NCBI GenBank assembly: GCA_964011675.1
Contig: CAXGPR010000002.1
Span: 26,216-90,215 of the forward strand
Length of the DNA stretch: 64,000 nt
Direction of reading: 5' to 3'
DNA from: an uncultured bacterium
GTDB lineage: Bacteria > Latescibacterota > UBA2968 > UBA8231
Under the pieces are notes generated by a model that was not told where the DNA came from, made no database searches, and worked only from the letters and a program-made list of their open reading frames with translations. The translations under genes were made by a program, and so were the position numbers. Below are positions 3,137 to 9,331 of this stretch, piece after piece; the stretch's first letter is position 1; every line of letters begins with the position of its first letter.

Positions 3137-3442
3137 TTACTCTGTCTGGCTGTCGAGCTGGTCTAAATAGGCCTGCCACTCTAGAGGTAGCAGGTATTTC
3201 TTTTGGTTGTTGCACTCTTTGCAGCAAGGAACGACGTTGGACTTTACCGTATAGCCTCCGCGACTAATTGGCACGATGTGATCCATTGTCAATTCTGGTG
3301 GAGGAAAATGTACTTGGCAGTAATGACAGTGCCCGCTAGCCCGTCGGTTCTTCCACCACTGGGAATGACGTAGTTGACGGGCTTTGTTTTTCTCTCTGCT
3401 TATGTGCTCTTCGGGTGCAGGTAAAAAGTAGTCTTCAGCCAT
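3137..3442 (-). CDS. Small HNH endonuclease
   Basis: It carries the HNH signature CHYCQ....DHIVPISRGG....NVVPCCKECNNQK. Confidence 0.7.
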   Translation of the reverse strand: MAEDYFLPAPEEHISREKNKARQLRHSQWWKNRRASGHCHYCQVHFPPPELTMDHIVPISRGGYTVKSNVVPCCKECNNQKKYLLPLEWQAYLDQLDSQTE

Positions 3443-3491: not shown

Positions 3492-4127
3492 ATGAACCAA
3501 ACAATCCCTCTATTTCCACTGCCGTTGGTCGTTTTTCCCAATCAGGCGTTGCCGCTCCATATTTTTGAACCGCGCTACCGCGATATGTTAGCCGATGTGC
3601 GCGAAGCGCAGGATCAAGGGGAAGTCATTCCTATTGGCATATGTTTGGGCGAAGATAGCGAATTGAGCGCGACGGTGGGCTGTGCCGTGCTGTTAGAAAA
3701 AGTGCTTAACGAGTATGGTGACGGCCGTGCCGATATTATCTGCGTTGGGTCTCGGCGTTTTACTGTCGGTGAAATTGTGAGCGAACGATCCTACTTAATA
3801 GTCGAAGCATCTTATATAGAGGACGAAGAAGAGCCTTTAGACGTCGCACTTCTCCAGAAAGCCCAACAGGGCTATATGCGTCTGTTGGAACTAACTCAGG
3901 AAGAGTCGGGTGACCGATTTGAGGGTGTCGTTCCACAGAACGCTTTTCAGATTGCTCAGTCGGCTGCGCTGCCAATAGAAAGGAAGCAAGAAATATTGCA
4001 GATGAACAGAGAAAATGAGCGTCTTCTCCTTCTCTGCAACCATTTTGATGAACTTGTTCTGCGCTTGGAAAGCCGCCGTGCTGAGCGCGTAAAGATTCAG
4101 TCTAACGGTCACTCAAAAAACCACTAG
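3492..4127 (+). CDS. LON N-terminal (substrate-binding) domain protein
   Basis: IPLFPLPLVVFPNQALPLHIFEPRYRDM is the canonical Lon N-domain start. There is no ATPase or protease domain. Confidence 0.7.
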   Translation: MNQTIPLFPLPLVVFPNQALPLHIFEPRYRDMLADVREAQDQGEVIPIGICLGEDSELSATVGCAVLLEKVLNEYGDGRADIICVGSRRFTVGEIVSERSYLIVEASYIEDEEEPLDVALLQKAQQGYMRLLELTQEESGDRFEGVVPQNAFQIAQSAALPIERKQEILQMNRENERLLLLCNHFDELVLRLESRRAERVKIQSNGHSKNH

Positions 4128-4217: not shown

Positions 4218-4886
4218 CTATCTGACTAGGTCGACAAAAATGTGGTGGGCGACTTCTAGACCGAGCGTTCGGGGTTGATGCGCTTCGACAAGGAGGGTGA
4301 TAGGACCTTTAAACGGTGCTTTCTCGCACACTTTAACCATGATACCCAATTGTAGGCCCACATCATTCATATAGCGGAGCATCGCCGGATCGCGGTCGCT
4401 AACGCGTTTGACTACTGCGCGCTGTCCACGGTCTATATCGGATAGACGCGCGTAGGTTTGTTCTTCAATCTGTCCGTTTTTGTCGGGAATGGGTTCGCCG
4501 TGGGCACCAATAGTTGGATGTCCTAACATTCTATCTATACGCTCTTCAAATTCTTCTGATATGGCGTGTTCGAGTCGTTCAGCTTCCGCGTCGACCGCGT
4601 CCCATGAATACCCCAGTGCCTCGGAAAGATAGAGTTCGATTAGGCGATGATGGCGGATCGTCTCAAGAGCAATTCTTTCCCCCGCTTCTCTCAGTACTAC
4701 GCCCCTATACGGCGCGTATTCGAGCAGGTTTACCTCCGCTAGTTTCTTGATCATATTGGTCGCGGAAGCCGCTGTCACGCCCATTCGTTCGGCCAGAATA
4801 GAAGTAGTTACTTGGTTAGGTGCATCACTCCCGTGTTGTAGCTTGTAAATTACCTTGAGATAGTCCTCAATAGATTGGCTGATCAT
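4218..4886 (-). CDS. DtxR/MntR-family metal-dependent transcriptional repressor with a C-terminal FeoA/SH3-like domain
   Basis: It has an N-terminal HTH (IEDYLKVIYKL...TTSILAERMGVTAASATNMIKKL), then the HRLIELYL metal-binding/dimerisation motif. It is divergent from a metal ABC importer. Confidence 0.8.
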   Translation of the reverse strand: MISQSIEDYLKVIYKLQHGSDAPNQVTTSILAERMGVTAASATNMIKKLAEVNLLEYAPYRGVVLREAGERIALETIRHHRLIELYLSEALGYSWDAVDAEAERLEHAISEEFEERIDRMLGHPTIGAHGEPIPDKNGQIEEQTYARLSDIDRGQRAVVKRVSDRDPAMLRYMNDVGLQLGIMVKVCEKAPFKGPITLLVEAHQPRTLGLEVAHHIFVDLVR

Positions 4887-4948
4887 AAATTCCTTTTAGA
4901 GAGAGAGCATACGGCTTATATTGATCCCCCCAATAGTATTAGTAACGA

Positions 4949-4971
4949 CCTTGACTTTATTTTAGTCAAGG
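4949..4971. promoter_or_regulatory. Inverted repeat ccttgact-N7-agtcaagg between the divergent repressor and transporter genes; candidate MntR/DtxR operator
   Basis: It has perfect 8-bp arms. It sits in the 134-bp divergent intergenic region. Confidence 0.35.
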
Positions 4972-5020
4972 CTAAATTTATATACTATTCGCGTTAAATG
5001 AAAACAAGAAACGAGCAACT

Positions 5021-5941
5021 ATGTTATTTCGCCACGCGATATGCTTTCTTCTCGCCTTTCTCTTGGGATGCGCGGGAAGTTCCACAGAGAATTTAAATGA
5101 TGCAGAACATGTCGCAGTGGTCTGTACCACGGGTATGGTTGCCGATTTAGCACAGCGCATAGGCGGCGATCGCGTTCGCGTTATGGGACTAATGGGGCCG
5201 GGTGTTGATCCGCATTACTACAAGGCATCACAGGGAGATTTGGCCAAGCTCGAGCGTGCGGATTTGATCTTATATAACGGGCTTTTACTCGAAGGTAAGA
5301 TGCAGGACATTTTTGGCAAGATGGCCCGCACCAAGCGCATTGTAGCCGTAGCCGATGCGATTGACAAGGCTGATTTACTGCAGCCTGACGAACTGGAAGG
5401 GCACTACGATCCGCATATTTGGTTTGACGTGTCTCTGTGGAGTAAAACCATTGATTCCGTTGTGCGCGCATTGTCCGAAATTGATCACGAAGGCGCTGAC
5501 AGCTATAAGCGTAACGGCGATTCATATCGAAAAGAGCTAGATGCGCTCGATGCGTGGGTGACGGAACAGGTTGAGCAAATCTCCAGTGGGCAGCGTGTGC
5601 TAATTACCGCGCATGACGCGTTCGGTTACTTTGGACAAGCCTACGGAATCGAAGTTATGGGATTGCAGGGAATCTCGACGGTTGCAGAATATGGCGTCAA
5701 CGACGTAATCGGATTGGTTGATCTTATTACTGAACGAAAGATTCGCGCAATCTTTGTCGAGAGTAGCGTGCCGGAGAGGTCGATTGAAGCGGTGCGGCAG
5801 GGTTGTTTACAGCGCGGCCACACTGTAGCTATTGGTGGCACGCTCTATTCGGATGCTATGGGAGGTCAGGGTAGCGGCGCAGATACGTATGTGGGCATGG
5901 TTCGGAGTAACGTTGAGACCGTCGTAGGGGCGTTGCGATGA
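5021..5941 (+). CDS. Metal (Mn/Zn) ABC transporter substrate-binding lipoprotein, TroA/ZnuA/MntC cluster
   Basis: It has a signal peptide plus lipobox (LLGCAGS) and a TroA-like fold. It lies in an operon with ABC-3 components. Confidence 0.8.
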   Translation: MLFRHAICFLLAFLLGCAGSSTENLNDAEHVAVVCTTGMVADLAQRIGGDRVRVMGLMGPGVDPHYYKASQGDLAKLERADLILYNGLLLEGKMQDIFGKMARTKRIVAVADAIDKADLLQPDELEGHYDPHIWFDVSLWSKTIDSVVRALSEIDHEGADSYKRNGDSYRKELDALDAWVTEQVEQISSGQRVLITAHDAFGYFGQAYGIEVMGLQGISTVAEYGVNDVIGLVDLITERKIRAIFVESSVPERSIEAVRQGCLQRGHTVAIGGTLYSDAMGGQGSGADTYVGMVRSNVETVVGALR

Positions 5942-6729
5942 GTGATCCAGTGCATTCTGACGGGGCAGTGCCGCCGATTCAAGTACACGATATGACTATT
6001 GCCTATCACAAAAAGCCCGTTCTATGGGATGTCGATCTGGATGTGCCTGAAGGCGTTCTGGTTGGGATTATCGGTCCAAATGGTGCGGGTAAAAGCACGA
6101 TGATTAAGGCTGTGATGGATCTGATTCCCAAGGCATCGGGTTGGGTTAAAATATACGACCGCCCGTACGATCAAATGCGCAGTGCGATCGGCTACGTACC
6201 TCAGCGCGAGTCCGTTGACTGGGATTTTCCCGTAAATGCGCTGGATGTGGTTTTGATGGGGCGTTATGGACACGTGGGATGGTTCCGCAGGCCTAGCAGC
6301 GAAGATCGTCGCATCGCAACAGAGGCGCTGGAAAAAGTAGGCATGGCCGAGTTCGCCCAACGGCAGATCAGCCAACTGTCGGGCGGACAGCAGCAGCGTG
6401 TATTTTTGGCCCGTGCGCTTGCCCAAGATGCACGTATTTACATGATGGACGAACCCTTTGCGGGGGTAGATGCGGCAACCGAGCGTGCAATTATTGACAT
6501 CTTGATAGAATTGCGTAGTCAAGGTAAGACTATTCTGGTTGTTCACCACGACTTGCAGACCGTGACCGCCTATTTTGATTGGATTATCATGCTCAACATG
6601 CGCGTGGTTGCAGCTGGCCCAACGGGGGAAGTGTTTACGGATGAGAATTTGCAAAAGACGTACGGCGGTCGCCTAACTGTGCTGAGCCAAGCTGCCCAGG
6701 CTATGGCTGATCACCGCAGGGGAAATTAA
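5938..6729 (+). CDS. Metal ABC transporter ATP-binding protein (MntA/ZnuC/TroB-like)
   Basis: It has Walker A (GPNGAGKST), the ABC signature (LSGGQQQRV) and Walker B (MMDEP). Its 4-nt overlap with the upstream gene indicates an operon. Confidence 0.85.
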   Translation: MSDPVHSDGAVPPIQVHDMTIAYHKKPVLWDVDLDVPEGVLVGIIGPNGAGKSTMIKAVMDLIPKASGWVKIYDRPYDQMRSAIGYVPQRESVDWDFPVNALDVVLMGRYGHVGWFRRPSSEDRRIATEALEKVGMAEFAQRQISQLSGGQQQRVFLARALAQDARIYMMDEPFAGVDAATERAIIDILIELRSQGKTILVVHHDLQTVTAYFDWIIMLNMRVVAAGPTGEVFTDENLQKTYGGRLTVLSQAAQAMADHRRGN

Positions 6730-8051
6730 TGCTAGACAATGCGCTGCGTTTTCTTAGTTTGGCCGACGCCAACGTCCGTTTTGTGCTGCTCGGTTCGCTG
6801 CTGATTGGAGCGACTGGAGGCATGTTGGGTAGCTTTGCCGTCCTGCGTCGACGCAGTTTGCTAGGCGACGCGCTGGCGCATGCCGCTCTGCCAGGCGTTG
6901 CGTTGGCTTATCTGGCCACGGGAAGCAAATCATTGCCGGTATTACTCGTAGGGGCCACAGTCGCGGGCATCCTCGGCGTCCTGCTGATTCAGTTCATAAC
7001 TCAGTATACGCGTGTGAAAGACGATTCTGCAATTGGTATCGTGCTGTCCGTATTTTTTGGTATCGGTATCGTGCTCCTGACACACATACAGCGTGATGGC
7101 GGGGGCAATCAGAGCGGCTTGGATAAGTTCCTCTTTGGTCAAGCCGCATCTATCGTGGGCGACGATCTAATAGTAATGACGGTGCTTACGGTGATTATCA
7201 TCGTCGCCGTACTCGCGTTATACAAGGAATTCAAGGCGCTTATTTTCGATGCAGGTTTTCTAAGTACGCTGGGTTTTTCTGCTCGCAGAGTGGATGCTAT
7301 GCTCATGGGACTTATCGTGTTGACGGTTATGGTTGGCCTGCAAGCCGTTGGTGTAGTGCTTATTGCCGCTATGCTCATAACGCCAGCTGTGGCAGCTCGC
7401 TTTTGGTCTGAGCGCCTCGGCATTGTGGTTGTTATTTCTACGGTGTTCGGCGGTATTTCAGGCATCTTCGGTACCTTTATAAGTTCGCTCGCACCGCGTA
7501 TACCGACAGGGCCTGTGATGATCCTCGTTGCGACCTCATTCTTTATTGTATCGGCATTCTGTGCGCCGAGACGTGGTATGTTGGCGCGCTGGCGCCGCCA
7601 CCGTCACAATGCCGAACGCGAACGACGCCACCATTTTTTGCGCGCTTTTATCGAACTGTCAAACAAAGAGCGCCGCGATACGCTGTTAGCTTCTTTGCTG
7701 GCCGTAGAATTAGGATGGAATGTATCGCGCGTCGAGCGGATTGGACGCAAGTTGGCACGTCAGGGATACGCCCAGCGCAGTGACGGCCAGTGGTGTCTTA
7801 CGGACGCGGGTGTTGATGAAGGCGTTTTCATAGTCAAGTCGCACCGTCTCTGGGAGCACTATCTGTATTATCGCTCTATTCTGGATGCAGACCACGTGGA
7901 TCGTCCTGCTGACGAAGTAGAGCATTTGCTTACGCCGGAAATTATCGCGGACTTAGAGCAGATTCTAGCCGAAGAGCGTGGTATTGATACAGACGAAGTA
8001 GTCAATATACACGGAACGCTCAGTCACTATCGTCGGGGGGGACGCGAGTAA
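6729..8051 (+). CDS. ABC-3 family metal permease (TroC/MntB-like) fused to a C-terminal DtxR-like HTH plus dimerisation domain
   Basis: The N-terminal 290 aa are ABC-3 (LRRRSLLGDALAHAALPG). The C-terminal ~140 aa are LLASLLAVELGWNVSRVERIGRKLARQGY...KSHRLWEHYL...ADEVEHLLTPE, which parallels the DtxR HTH, HRLAERLL and metal-site regions. Confidence 0.8.
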   Translation: MLDNALRFLSLADANVRFVLLGSLLIGATGGMLGSFAVLRRRSLLGDALAHAALPGVALAYLATGSKSLPVLLVGATVAGILGVLLIQFITQYTRVKDDSAIGIVLSVFFGIGIVLLTHIQRDGGGNQSGLDKFLFGQAASIVGDDLIVMTVLTVIIIVAVLALYKEFKALIFDAGFLSTLGFSARRVDAMLMGLIVLTVMVGLQAVGVVLIAAMLITPAVAARFWSERLGIVVVISTVFGGISGIFGTFISSLAPRIPTGPVMILVATSFFIVSAFCAPRRGMLARWRRHRHNAERERRHHFLRAFIELSNKERRDTLLASLLAVELGWNVSRVERIGRKLARQGYAQRSDGQWCLTDAGVDEGVFIVKSHRLWEHYLYYRSILDADHVDRPADEVEHLLTPEIIADLEQILAEERGIDTDEVVNIHGTLSHYRRGGRE

Positions 8052-9331
8052 TGGAAATCGCTAGCGCGTTCTGGATTGTACTAACGGGTTCGCTTGCATC
8101 TGCGTCCTGTGCGTTGCTCGGCACGTTTCTCGTGTTGCGCAAGATGTCGCTGCTCGGCGATGCACTGAGTCACGCTGTGTTGCCAGGTATTGCGATTGCT
8201 TTTCTGCTATCGGACAGTCGGGCAATTATACCTATGTTTGTTGGTGCTGCGCTTTGCGGCCTGCTGACGACGTTCCTAATAGAAGCTTTTCACCGCAAGT
8301 GGAACGTGCAGGAAGATGCCTCAATTGGTATTGTTTTTACCGCGCTCTTTGCTCTGGGCGTGGTCTTGGTTACGGCTTATGCTGGACAGGTCGATCTCGA
8401 TCAAGAATGCGTGCTGTATGGGGAGATCGCGTATACGCCGTGGGATACGCTGATCTGGAACGGGGTTGATGTGGGACCTCGCCCCGTATGGGTATTGAGT
8501 GCGGTCTTCATACTCAACATGCTTTTTGTGTGCACGCTCTACAAAGAATTAAAAATCGCGTCCTTTGACTCGGCCATGGCCATGGCGGTGGGAATCAACG
8601 CAACTCTCATACATTATTTGCTGATGGGTATGGTATCGCTGACCACGGTCGCAGCGTTTGAATCTGTGGGTGCTATTCTCGTTGTTGCCATGTTTATTGT
8701 GCCCGGAGCATCGGCCTACTTGTGGAGCGATCAACTAGTCACAATTCTTCGTCTTGCCGTGGTATTTGGTGTGCTTTCGGCCTGGGTTGGGTATTGGACG
8801 GCTGGTGTCTGGGGCAGTTCTATTGCTGGATCTATCGTTGCCGTGGCTGGGTTTATTTTCTTACTGTCGCTGCTATTTTCACCCAACCAGGGCATAATAG
8901 CGCGTTTGTGGCAGCACGCCACTCTTTCCGTGCAGGTGGCCCAAGATCATATGCTCTTGGCGCTCGTGCGGCATTTTGAGGTAGACGAGACACACCGCTC
9001 AAGTCGAGAAGATCTGCTGCAGGCGACTTCGGTCTCTTACTTGGTATCGCGATTAGCCTTGCAGTCATTAGAGAAGAGTAGGCTGGTTGTACACGACAAG
9101 GGGGGCTGGGCATTGGCTGCCGGAGGCAGACAGGAGGCGCTGCGCCTCCTGCGCAACCATCGCCTGTGGGAAACGTACCTAAGCGGGCTGGGTCTTCCGG
9201 AAAATAGGGTGCATGGCCCGGCCGATGCCGTAGAACATTTTATCGGCCGTCAGCTGGCTGCCGAACTGGGGGCCGAAGTAGACCAGTCGATAGATCCACA
9301 GGGCAAACAGATACCTATATCAGACGATTAG
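8051..9331 (+). CDS. Second ABC-3 metal permease (TroD/MntD-like), also with a fused C-terminal DtxR-like domain
   Basis: It has the ABC-3 N-terminus (LRKMSLLGDALSHAVLPG). The C-terminus is LALVRHFEV...LVSRLALQSLEKSRLV...RNHRLWETYL...PADAVEHFI. Confidence 0.8.
   Translation: MEIASAFWIVLTGSLASASCALLGTFLVLRKMSLLGDALSHAVLPGIAIAFLLSDSRAIIPMFVGAALCGLLTTFLIEAFHRKWNVQEDASIGIVFTALFALGVVLVTAYAGQVDLDQECVLYGEIAYTPWDTLIWNGVDVGPRPVWVLSAVFILNMLFVCTLYKELKIASFDSAMAMAVGINATLIHYLLMGMVSLTTVAAFESVGAILVVAMFIVPGASAYLWSDQLVTILRLAVVFGVLSAWVGYWTAGVWGSSIAGSIVAVAGFIFLLSLLFSPNQGIIARLWQHATLSVQVAQDHMLLALVRHFEVDETHRSSREDLLQATSVSYLVSRLALQSLEKSRLVVHDKGGWALAAGGRQEALRLLRNHRLWETYLSGLGLPENRVHGPADAVEHFIGRQLAAELGAEVDQSIDPQGKQIPISDD

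What the first reader, a model, noticed from the sequence alone, without database searches (positions are those of the whole stretch)
6729..9331. Both ABC-3 metal permeases carry a fused C-terminal DtxR-like DNA-binding plus metal-sensing domain
Each transmembrane permease of the TroABCD/MntABC-type importer is 426-440 aa, whereas typical permeases are ~290 aa. The extra ~140 C-terminal residues align with the N-terminal two-thirds of DtxR/MntR: a winged HTH, the HRLWEHYL / NHRLWETYL helix that matches DtxR HRLAERLL, and a His/Glu/Asp-rich segment at the position of the DtxR metal sites. A canonical soluble DtxR/MntR-FeoA regulator is also encoded divergently at 4218-4886, so the locus contains three DtxR-type modules. 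A membrane-tethered DtxR domain is unlikely to act as a classical repressor. It may instead be a cytoplasmic metal sensor that gates transport, or a module that hetero-dimerises with the soluble regulator. To my knowledge such fusions have no functional characterisation.
Basis: partly seen in the sequence, partly recalled or inferred. Interest (0 to 1): 0.62.

Follow-up and report, generated by a model that had tools for sequence, protein, structure and literature searches.

The report
Metal permeases fused to DtxR sensors
Both membrane subunits of a manganese/iron/zinc ABC importer end in a cytoplasmic DtxR-type metal-sensing domain; this kind of fusion is already characterised in Chlamydia (YtgC-YtgR), but having it on both subunits alongside a separate soluble regulator is a widespread variant that has not been studied.

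Summary
Permease 1 (6729-8051, 440 aa) and permease 2 (8051-9331, 426 aa) each combine an ABC-3 domain with a C-terminal Fe_dep_repr_C hit above Pfam threshold. AlphaFold models show nine TM helices, then a long helix and a wHTH plus dimerisation domain. For permease 2 this superposes on the Mn repressor DR2539 (rmsd 2.5 A). The extension is cytoplasmic. The identical protein occurs on 14 independent contigs, so it is not an artefact.

The claim that such fusions are uncharacterised is wrong. Chlamydia trachomatis YtgC-YtgR is this fusion: it is cleaved and acts as an iron-dependent repressor. The window's domains share YtgR's ligand set and its HRLWE signature.

What differs is that both subunits are fused (41 of 80 sampled species-level loci, several phyla), and 30 of those 41 also keep a soluble DtxR-FeoA regulator nearby. 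The fused wHTH is variable and lacks canonical DNA-contact residues, but so does the proven DNA binder YtgR, so this does not decide the function. It is still under purifying selection (dN/dS 0.21-0.27).

Best reading: YtgR-like metal feedback. An in-situ heterodimeric sensor that gates transport remains a live alternative. This is a new variant of a known kind, of moderate interest.

The parts
4218..4886 (-). Soluble DtxR/MntR-type regulator with a FeoA (SH3-like) third domain, transcribed divergently from the importer operon
   Evidence: Pfam Fe_dep_repress (62.6 bits), Fe_dep_repr_C (91.3) and FeoA (63.5). NCBIfam best match is the Thermus-type MntR model (E 7.7e-61, below its cut-off). It retains 85% of the DNA-contact positions of DR2539. 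wHTH dN/dS is 0.097.
4938..4978 (+). Divergent promoter/operator block. Upstream half-site ATTAGTAA (4938-4945); -35 TTGACT (4951-4956); 7-2-7 palindrome TTTAGTC-AA-GGCTAAA (4961-4976) overlapping the -10 TAAATT (4973-4978); lineage-specific 8-7-8 palindrome CCTTGACT-N7-AGTCAAGG (4949-4971)
   Evidence: Inverted repeat. It is the only deeply conserved block in a footprint of 10 related intergenic regions. Promoter-like match TTGACT-16-TAAATT. It is the only copy of the palindrome in the 64 kb window, although one chance match at <=2 mismatches is not unusual (42/100 shuffles).
5021..5941 (+). Periplasmic metal-binding protein (ZnuA/TroA/PsaA family)
   Evidence: Pfam ZnuA, E 5.5e-77.
5938..6729 (+). 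ABC ATPase subunit, with no C-terminal sensor domain
   Evidence: Pfam ABC_tran, E 6e-29. It is 263 aa with no cysteine at all, so it has no ZnuC-type CxxxHxCC zinc-sensing domain (translation; motif from PMC12236471).
6729..7568 (+). Permease 1 transmembrane domain (TroC/YtgC-type, nine TM helices plus coupling helices)
   Evidence: ABC-3, E 3.9e-65. AF2 helices up to 260-278. Foldseek PsaC 7kyp, E 2.8e-14. Chlamydial YtgC matches this TM domain at 119-162 bits against 73-95 for P2. The PsaC coordination-site equivalents D47/H51 are invariant.
7578..8048 (+). Permease 1 cytoplasmic YtgR-type DtxR module (residues 284-440): stalk + alpha1 (284-314), wHTH (318-357), metal/dimerisation helices (359-417), and a P1-specific tail with a near-invariant His428
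   Evidence: Fe_dep_repr_C 38.5 bits. PDB sequence match 5zr4, E 3.3e-5 over residues 18-116. AF2 secondary structure. Ligand columns across 30 loci: H(alpha1) 24/30, H79 29/30, E83 30/30, D at position 102 30/30, E105 30/30, H106 30/30. dN/dS: wHTH 0.21, alpha4-6 0.073.
8051..8878 (+). Permease 2 transmembrane domain (TroD/YtgD-type, nine TM helices plus coupling helices at 164-180)
   Evidence: ABC-3, E 1.6e-50. AF2 pLDDT 84.6, with TM helices 2-29, 33-54, 59-83, 88-111, 144-162, 184-203, 208-225, 229-254 and 258-276. PsaC 7kyp, E 2e-15. D37/H41 are invariant.
8894..9328 (+). Permease 2 cytoplasmic YtgR-type DtxR module (residues 282-426): stalk + alpha1 (282-311), wHTH (316-355), metal/dimerisation helices (357-409), and a DPQGKxIP tail
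   Evidence: Fe_dep_repr_C 50.1 bits. PDB 8pvt, E 2.4e-10. Foldseek 8pw0, rmsd 2.5 A over 131 columns. Ligand columns: H(alpha1) 23/30 (D in the other 7), H79, E83, H98, E105 and H106 all 30/30, D at position 102 27/30. In the 115-sequence alignment H300, H370, E374, H388, E395 and H396 are invariant. dN/dS: wHTH 0.27, alpha4-6 0.093.

Best explanation
This is a TroABCD/YtgABCD/PsaBCA-type ABC importer for ionic Mn/Fe/Zn. BOTH membrane subunits (TroC/YtgC-like P1 and TroD/YtgD-like P2) end in a cytoplasmic two-domain DtxR module: a wHTH plus a metal-binding dimerisation domain, with no SH3/FeoA domain. The modules belong to the same class as Chlamydia YtgR.

Proposed mechanism:
1. Metal brought in by the transporter loads the conserved His/Glu/Asp sites.
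2. The P1 and P2 modules leave the membrane side by side at TM9 and pair.
3. As shown experimentally for YtgR, the module then acts as a metal-dependent repressor, most probably after proteolytic release.
4. This adds a transporter-coupled feedback layer on top of the soluble DtxR-FeoA regulator, which I assign to the conserved palindrome in the divergent promoter.

Shown here: the domain architecture, the fold, the cytoplasmic location, conservation of the ligand positions, class membership with YtgR, conservation of the double fusion, and purifying selection on all parts.

Inferred: metal binding, P1-P2 pairing, cleavage, DNA binding, and which protein uses the palindrome.

Class membership I put at about 0.9. 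The released-repressor output I put at about 0.45, and that is the confidence given for this explanation as a whole.
For: Architecture and fold.

Cytoplasmic location:
- Four TM helices follow the coupling helices at 164-180.
- This matches PsaC's nine-TM topology, with TM9 at the dimer interface (PMC8346216).
- The linker is Arg/Lys-rich.

Same class as YtgR:
- Identical ligand pattern: alpha1-His, H79, E83, H98, E/D102, E105, H106.
- The HRL-W-E tryptophan is present in P1 41/41, P2 32/41 (Tyr in the other 9), single-fusion proteins 17/17 and YtgR 7/7, but in only 2/30 soluble regulators.
- YtgC's TM domain is P1-type.
- The layout is the same: a short turn after the last TM helix, then one long helix.

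Experimental precedent: the YtgR domain (C-terminal 139 aa) binds its promoters in an Fe-dependent manner, represses, and is cleaved from YtgC (PMC5599777; PMC6504234; PMC7755916).

The fused wHTH is under purifying selection (dN/dS 0.21 and 0.27) and keeps a net positive charge equal to that of the soluble regulator. wHTH-only versions of the extension persist in other lineages, so the wHTH has a function of its own.

The architecture is conserved: every full-length top hit is fused, and 41 species-level loci carry the double fusion.
Against: - The locus already encodes a canonical soluble regulator. It retains 85% of DR2539's DNA-contact positions, against 28% (P1) and 17% (P2). 30 of 41 double-fusion loci keep such a regulator within 7 kb.
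- The promoter footprint shows only one conserved block.
- The fused wHTH is the least conserved part of the module: entropy ~2.0-2.2 bits against 0.93 for the regulator's recognition helix.
- The P1 and P2 modules are only 29% identical, so a heterodimer would need an asymmetric operator, and none was identified.
- The connection to TM9 is a continuous 30-residue helix rather than a flexible linker. In DR2539 the residues at the N-terminus of alpha1 contact DNA, so the uncleaved form probably could not bind DNA in the canonical mode.
- Nothing here tests cleavage or DNA binding.
- No + strand promoter-like site lies near either TM/DtxR domain boundary that could express the domain separately.
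Confidence: 0.45

Rival explanations
1. In-situ gating (trans-inhibition). The two modules stay attached and form a P1-P2 heterodimer under the transporter when cytoplasmic metal is high. Through the rigid helix that links a metal ligand on alpha1 to TM9, they lock the permease and stop import. Transcription is left to the soluble regulator, and the wHTH serves as a docking surface rather than a DNA reader.
For: - Both subunits are fused, giving a 1:1 pair.
- TM9 lies at the PsaC dimer interface, so the modules emerge adjacent to each other.
- The metal/dimerisation helices are the most conserved part and the wHTH the least.
- A continuous helix runs from TM9 into alpha1, which carries the His ligand.
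- The soluble regulator and a single conserved operator are present.
- The ATPase lacks any regulatory domain.
- There is direct precedent in the same transporter class: ZnuC's C-terminal zinc-sensing domain dimerises on Zn and locks ZnuBC closed (PMC12236471).
Against: - No DtxR-type domain is known to act this way.
- The only characterised homologue (YtgR) is a DNA-binding repressor with the same divergent wHTH, so wHTH divergence is not evidence for this model.
- Relatives with ligand-less modules (Bacillota) or wHTH-only extensions (Thermoanaerobaculia and others) cannot be metal gates, yet they retain the wHTH.
- The geometry could not be tested, because only monomer models without coordinates were available.
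Confidence: 0.33
2. Partner of the soluble regulator. A fused module heterodimerises with the soluble DtxR-FeoA protein, sequestering it at the membrane or handing metal to it, and so couples repressor activity to transporter abundance.
For: Three DtxR-type dimerisation domains are encoded in one locus. The regulator co-occurs with the double fusion in 30 of 41 loci. All three share H79, E83, E105 and H106.
Against: - The dimerisation region of the fused modules is only 29-38% identical to the regulator's, and the fused class has its own signature (Trp in HRLWE) that the regulator lacks.
- 11 of 41 double-fusion loci have no regulator within 7 kb.
- Chlamydia has the fusion but no soluble DtxR-type regulator: YtgR is described as its only identified iron-dependent regulator.
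- With a module on each subunit, the obvious partner is the other subunit.
Confidence: 0.07
3. Artefact or decaying relic. The long ORFs result from assembly or frameshift errors or a recent read-through fusion, and the extensions are non-functional.
For: There is no Pfam Fe_dep_repress hit. One relative (L041) has the module as a separate 99-aa ORF after a 352-aa permease.
Against: - The identical protein occurs on 14 independent contigs.
- Every full-length protein among the top 120 hits for each permease is fused.
- Ligand positions are invariant.
- dN/dS is 0.07-0.27 in every part of the extension.
- The AF2 fold is confident.
Confidence: 0.01

Closest known systems
Chlamydia trachomatis YtgC-YtgR (CT069/CTL0325) of the ytgABCD operon
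   Same: - ABC-3 permease with a C-terminal two-domain DtxR-like module in one ORF, third gene of an SBP-ATPase-permease-permease operon.
- Same ligand set and HRLWE signature, and the same long helix after the last TM helix.
- Same lack of canonical DtxR DNA-contact residues.
   Different: - In Chlamydia only YtgC is fused and YtgD is not. Here the YtgD-type subunit is fused too.
- Chlamydia has no other DtxR-type regulator, whereas here a soluble DtxR-FeoA regulator is encoded divergently.
- Core identity is only ~35-38%.
- Cleavage, DNA binding and metal specificity are shown for YtgR and untested here.
Treponema pallidum troABCD-troR, and Mn regulators DR2539 / MntR / SloR / ScaR (DtxR family)
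   Same: The same importer type is paired with a DtxR-family Mn/Zn/Fe repressor. The window's soluble regulator keeps DR2539's DNA-contact residues almost one for one, and a palindromic operator overlaps the promoter. P2's module superposes on DR2539 at 2.5 A.
   Different: In those systems the regulator is a separate soluble protein and the permeases are ~290 aa. The fused modules lack the third (SH3/FeoA) domain and the canonical DNA-contact residues.
E. coli ZnuC zinc-sensing domain (and MetN C2 / ModC regulatory domains): built-in trans-inhibition of ABC importers
   Same: A cytoplasmic sensor domain covalently built into a metal ABC importer of the same type II / ABC-3 class, present in two copies per transporter, which dimerises on ligand binding (PMC12236471).
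   Different: Those sensors sit on the ATPase, not the permease, and are unrelated in fold (a CxxxHxCC motif for ZnuC). The window's ATPase has no such domain. Gating by the DtxR modules is hypothetical.
Streptococcus pneumoniae PsaBC (PDB 7KYO/7KYP)
   Same: Closest solved structure of the transmembrane part: nine TM helices, two coupling helices, and a conserved Asp/His coordination site in TM2 (P1 D47/H51, P2 D37/H41).
   Different: PsaC is a homodimer of ~280-aa subunits with no C-terminal domain. Here the permease is a heterodimer and both subunits are extended.

Membership tests
YtgC-YtgR-type permease-repressor fusion | ABC-3 permease domain and DtxR-like domain in a single uninterrupted ORF within an SBP-ATPase-permease-permease operon | tested here: met
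   The identical ORF occurs on 14 contigs.
YtgC-YtgR-type permease-repressor fusion | Fused module shares the YtgR sequence signatures (alpha1 His ligand, HRLWE, H98, E/D102, E105-H106) | tested here: met
   Alignment with seven Chlamydiae YtgCR sequences from PMC7755916 Supplementary Data 5.
YtgC-YtgR-type permease-repressor fusion | The fused subunit is the first (YtgC/TroC-type) permease; the second (YtgD) is unfused | tested here: not met
   P1 is YtgC-type and fused, but P2 (YtgD-type) is fused as well. 41 of 80 sampled loci share this double fusion.
YtgC-YtgR-type permease-repressor fusion | Proteolytic release of the C-terminal domain | not testable with these tools
   Needs immunoblot or mass spectrometry. 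The only observations here are a helical (not flexible) linker and the absence of a + strand promoter-like site near the domain boundaries.
YtgC-YtgR-type permease-repressor fusion | Metal-dependent binding to and repression of its own promoter | not testable with these tools
   One conserved palindrome is present, but which protein binds it cannot be determined computationally.
DtxR/MntR family (Pfam Fe_dep_repress + Fe_dep_repr_C) | Metal-binding/dimerisation domain (PF02742) with conserved ligand positions | tested here: met
   38.5 and 50.1 bits against a threshold of 27. Ligand columns are invariant or nearly so.
DtxR/MntR family (Pfam Fe_dep_repress + Fe_dep_repr_C) | N-terminal wHTH DNA-binding domain recognised by PF01325 | tested here: not met
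   No PF01325 hit at E<=1. The wHTH fold is nevertheless present.
DtxR/MntR family (Pfam Fe_dep_repress + Fe_dep_repr_C) | Canonical DNA-contact residues (as in the DR2539-DNA complex 8PW0) | tested here: not met
   Retention is 0.28 (P1) and 0.17 (P2) against 0.85 for the soluble regulator. The DNA-binding YtgR scores 0.16, so this does not exclude DNA binding.
ABC-3 ionic-metal permease (PsaC/TroC/TroD/MntB/ZnuB) | Nine TM helices with two coupling helices and the TM2 Asp/His coordination site | tested here: met
   D47/H51 and D37/H41 are invariant. Features as described in PMC8346216.
Built-in trans-inhibition sensors of ABC importers (ZnuC ZSD type) | Sensor domain on the ATPase with a CxxxHxCC motif | tested here: not met
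   The ATPase is 263 aa and contains no cysteine. The resemblance is functional only, and hypothetical.

The most novel reading that the evidence does not exclude
The two YtgR-type modules never leave the transporter. They form a metal-dependent P1-P2 heterodimer beneath the permease and, through the rigid TM9-alpha1 helix, lock it shut when cytoplasmic metal is high. A DtxR fold would then have been re-purposed from repressor to allosteric gate of a type II ABC importer, with transcription left to the soluble regulator. The wHTH-only and ligand-less variants in other phyla would be further steps of the same re-purposing.
Probability: 0.3. Interest if true: 0.75.

Novelty: new variant of a known kind. 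Interest (0 to 1): 0.42.

Why it matters
Permease-repressor fusions have been studied only in Chlamydia, an obligate intracellular pathogen with one fused subunit and no other DtxR-type regulator. There it remains unclear why a repressor is built into a permease, and which protease releases it.

The double-fused form is common in free-living, mostly uncultured lineages (Latescibacterota, Gemmatimonadota, Calditrichota, KSB1, Acidobacteriota, Krumholzibacteriia, Omnitrophota). It coexists with a conventional repressor. That separates the two possible jobs (transcription versus direct transporter control) in one locus and makes the question testable with recombinant proteins.

If the modules gate transport, that would be a new mode of post-translational control of metal import and a new function for the DtxR fold. 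If they are released repressors, heterodimeric DtxR-type regulators coupled to transporter turnover would be a new regulatory layout.

Tried and rejected
1. **Conservation argument.** I tried to argue from conservation that the fused wHTH has lost DNA binding. The recognition helix is far more variable than in the soluble regulator of the same genomes, and DR2539's DNA-contact residues are not retained. I rejected this as decisive after calibration: the experimentally DNA-binding YtgR scores the same (0.16), and the wHTH is still under purifying selection.
2. **Lon-domain neighbour.** I asked whether the neighbouring stand-alone Lon substrate-binding-domain gene (3492-4127) is a conserved partner that could explain cleavage. 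It is present in only 11 of 41 double-fusion loci, all in the closest clade, so it is lineage synteny and not a system component.
3. **The 8-7-8 palindrome.** I first took CCTTGACT-N7-AGTCAAGG as the operator. Footprinting showed it is specific to the window and its two nearest relatives. The deeply conserved element is the overlapping TTTAGYC-NN-GRCTAAA.
4. **Hydropathy topology.** The crude hydropathy prediction was too noisy. I replaced it with the AF2 helices plus the PsaC topology.
5. **Thompson et al. 2012.** The original PNAS paper on the fusion is not in the library. Whether it mentions double fusions could not be checked.
6. **Representative search.** The 1.84-billion-representative search with P2's module gave 1291 clusters at E<=1e-3. 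Many are metagenomic fragments, so it does not give a clean count of fused versus free proteins.
7. **First dN/dS script.** It timed out and was rewritten.

Full report
- a divergent 222-aa regulator (4218-4886, minus strand);
- a ZnuA-family binding protein (5021-5941);
- an ABC ATPase (5938-6729);
- two permeases of 440 aa (6729-8051) and 426 aa (8051-9331), whose stop and start codons overlap by one base.

Pfam finds ABC-3 in both permeases (E 3.9e-65 and 1.6e-50). It also finds the DtxR metal-binding/dimerisation domain Fe_dep_repr_C at residues 358-414 (38.5 bits) and 359-422 (50.1 bits), against a gathering score of 27.

The wHTH is nevertheless present:
- phmmer against PDB sequences aligns the extensions to residues ~18-135 of DtxR-family chains (5zr4, 8pvt, MntR, DtxR).
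- AlphaFold2 models (P2 pLDDT 84.6, P1 73.6) show alpha1-alpha2-alpha3-hairpin-alpha4 and onward after the last TM helix.
- Foldseek places the last 131 residues of P2 on the DNA-bound Mn repressor DR2539 (8PW0; rmsd 2.5 A, target TM-score 0.79), followed by DtxR, SloR, MntR, IdeR and ScaR.
- P1 matches only the same family apart from transporters, but more weakly.

**2. Not an artefact.** The identical P2 protein and the identical locus are found on 14 independently assembled marine-metagenome contigs. All full-length proteins among the best 120 hits for each permease carry PF02742. Every part of the extension has dN/dS between 0.07 and 0.27.

**3. Topology.**
- The P2 model has TM helices 2-29, 33-54, 59-83, 88-111 and 144-162, coupling helices at 164-180, and then four more TM helices (184-203, 208-225, 229-254, 258-276).
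- This is the nine-TM, two-coupling-helix topology of PsaC, the closest solved structure (PMC8346216).
- Four helices after the cytoplasmic coupling helices put the C-terminus in the cytoplasm.
- In PsaC, TM9 is part of the dimer interface, so the two extensions should emerge side by side.
- In both models a five-residue turn leads into one continuous ~30-residue helix (P2 282-311, P1 284-314). Its second half is DtxR alpha1 and carries a metal ligand.

**4. What is already known.**
- Chlamydia trachomatis YtgC (CT069/CTL0325) is an ABC-3 permease with a C-terminal DtxR-like domain, YtgR.
- The isolated 139-aa domain binds the ytg and trpBA promoters in an iron-dependent manner and represses them.
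- YtgR is cleaved from YtgC during infection and in E. coli.
- Orthologous fusions were reported in 11 phyla.
- Sources: PMC5599777; PMC6504234; PMC7755916.

**5. Membership.** I took seven Chlamydiae YtgCR sequences from Supplementary Data 5 of PMC7755916.
- YtgC's TM domain is clearly P1-type (119-162 bits against 73-95 bits for P2).
- The YtgR domain has the same ligand pattern as the window's modules: His on alpha1, then the equivalents of DtxR H79, E83, H98, E/D at 102, E105 and H106.
- A tryptophan in the HRLWE helix marks all fused modules (P1 41/41, P2 32/41 plus 9 Tyr, single-fusion proteins 17/17, YtgR 7/7) and is nearly absent from the soluble regulators (2/30).
- The modules are therefore YtgR-class.

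**6. What is different.** A scan of species-representative genomes returned 80 loci, which I classified with home-built HMMs.
- 41 have both permeases fused. The record titles name Latescibacterota, Gemmatimonadota, Calditrichales, KSB1, Acidobacteriota, Krumholzibacteriia, Omnitrophota, and Actinomycetota and Planctomycetota MAGs.
- About 20 have only the first permease fused, as in Chlamydia.
- The rest, mostly Bacillota, had no module that my HMMs detected.
- 30 of the 41 double-fusion loci also encode a soluble DtxR-FeoA regulator within 7 kb. It is either divergent, as here, or downstream in tro-like order.
- The P1 and P2 modules are only 29% identical to each other.
- The searchable literature on this fusion is limited to Chlamydia. 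I found no description of the double fusion.

**7. Repressor or sensor?** In 30 genomes that have all three proteins:
- The soluble regulator's recognition helix is among its most conserved parts (0.93 bits entropy).
- The wHTH of the fused modules is their most variable part (~2.0-2.2 bits).
- Their metal/dimerisation helices are nearly as conserved as the regulator's.

The ligand columns are invariant or nearly so. Using the published DR2539-DNA contacts (bioRxiv 10.1101/2024.02.12.579695), the regulator retains 85% of contact positions, P1 28% and P2 17%.

This looked like evidence for loss of DNA binding, but the calibration removes it. YtgR, a demonstrated DNA binder, scores 16% and shows the same region-wise pattern across Chlamydiae. 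Single-fusion proteins show the pattern too. The fused wHTH is also still under purifying selection, with dN/dS of 0.21 and 0.27 against 0.07-0.09 for the metal core and 0.10 for the regulator's wHTH. A divergent wHTH is therefore a trait of the whole class and does not decide the function.

**8. Promoter.** A footprint of ten related divergent intergenic regions shows one conserved block. It contains:
- a -35 box, TTGACT (4951-4956);
- a 7-2-7 palindrome, TTTAGTC-AA-GGCTAAA (4961-4976), overlapping the -10 TAAATT (4973-4978);
- an upstream half-site (4938-4945).

The palindrome occurs once in the 64-kb window. Because the soluble regulator keeps the canonical contact residues, I assign this operator to it. 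That assignment is an inference. No second, asymmetric conserved element for a P1-P2 heterodimer was seen, and no + strand promoter-like site lies near either TM/DtxR domain boundary.

**9. Synthesis.** These points are shown:
- YtgR-class modules on both subunits;
- a cytoplasmic location;
- ligand positions intact;
- the double architecture conserved across phyla;
- every part under selection.

The most defensible mechanism rests on homology to the one characterised member. Imported metal loads the modules, which act as a metal-dependent repressor, probably after release and probably as a P1-P2 pair. This adds a feedback layer tied to transporter abundance. I give the released-repressor output about 0.45.

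The main rival, at about 0.33, is an in-situ heterodimeric sensor that gates transport. It is favoured by:
- the 1:1 double fusion at the TM9 interface;
- the rigid helical link that carries a ligand;
- the co-resident conventional repressor with a single operator;
- the absence of any regulatory domain on the ATPase;
- the recent demonstration that ZnuC carries a built-in zinc sensor that locks ZnuBC (PMC12236471).

In DR2539 the residues at the N-terminus of alpha1 touch DNA. A helix continuing from there to the membrane would therefore probably clash with DNA, so the uncleaved form is unlikely to bind DNA canonically. The two models are not mutually exclusive.

**10. Further grades of the module.**
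- In Thermoanaerobaculia, Acidobacteriota and Holophagales loci the second permease carries only alpha1 + wHTH (86-106 aa). One of these reaches MarR_2 at 28.8 bits, above the threshold of 27.
- In Bacillota, Thermoactinomycetaceae and a Bathyarchaeia MAG the first permease carries a 143-166-aa extension with a degenerate NQRLWD motif that has lost the ligands.

These variants keep the wHTH without metal sensing. That argues the wHTH has its own role and that the family is more diverse than the Chlamydia example suggests.

**11. Verdict and limits.**
- The finding is real, but the kind is known. The double fusion with a retained soluble regulator is a new variant of moderate interest.
- No experiment or multimer model was possible.
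- The locus sample comes from one pattern-based scan, and only +/-7 kb was examined per genome.
- The original 2012 paper could not be read.

Noticed in passing
L051:3157-4269, L062:202-1311, L069:2333-3448, L077:5101-6267 (also L058, L065, L068, L076, L079, L084): In Thermoanaerobaculia/Acidobacteriota/Holophagales loci, where only the first permease has a full DtxR module, the second permease carries an 86-106 aa C-terminal extension. It consists of alpha1 plus a wHTH only and has no metal-binding/dimerisation domain. L062 reaches Pfam MarR_2 at 28.8 bits (threshold 27).
   Followed up: partly
L054:5661-7001, L059:5658-7001, L070:5686-6975, L075:5619-7010, L078:5661-7001, L080:5649-6986: In Bacillota/Thermoactinomycetaceae genomes and a Bathyarchaeia MAG, the first permease has a 143-166 aa extension with a wHTH-like stretch and a degenerate 'NQRLWD' helix (the DtxR H79 position is Gln). 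This looks like a ligand-less relative of the module. Pfam sees only ABC-3.
   Followed up: partly
L041:5931-7285: A 352-aa permease is followed immediately by a separate 99-aa ORF that hits Fe_dep_repr_C (45.7 bits), and then by a normally fused second permease. This is either a natural split of the fusion or a frameshift in that MAG.
   Followed up: partly
window 3492-4127 (+): A stand-alone Lon substrate-binding-domain protein (LON_substr_bdg, E 1e-20) lies next to the regulator. It is conserved at this position only in the closest clade (11 of 41 double-fusion loci), so it is probably synteny and not a cleavage factor.
   Followed up: yes
window 3137-3442 (-): A small 101-aa HNH endonuclease ORF (HNH_5, E 4.8e-13) lies between the DHDPS-like gene and the Lon-domain gene. 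A similar HNH gene is called at this position in the NCBI record behind L006 but not on the otherwise similar contig L005.
   Followed up: no
L019-L026, about 8330-9010 (+): In one Latescibacterota clade the soluble DtxR-FeoA regulator lies directly downstream of the second fused permease on the same strand (troABCD-troR order) instead of divergently upstream. A further weak DtxR-like ORF lies ~5 kb upstream.
   Followed up: no
window 7980-8048 (P1 residues ~418-440): Permease 1 has its own C-terminal tail (VVNIHGT...YRRGG) with a near-invariant His428. It replaces the DPxGxxIP motif that P2, YtgR and the soluble regulators share. It has low pLDDT and its role is unknown; it might be an extra metal ligand.
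   Followed up: no
window 8393-8479 (P2 residues 115-143): The periplasmic loop of permease 2 contains an almost invariant acidic motif, DLDQECVLYGEIAYTPWD, which was used as the scan pattern. P1 has a different invariant motif here (NQSGLDKFLFGQAA). The two halves of the outer gate are therefore asymmetric. AF2 confidence is below 50 for residues 115-130.
   Followed up: no
literature (PMC5599777, PMC7755916): The reported YtgR cleavage product in Chlamydia runs at ~28-30 kDa, far larger than the ~16-kDa DtxR module. The cut would then lie inside the permease domain, and the released fragment may retain TM helices. This bears on how 'release' should be understood for this whole class.
   Followed up: no
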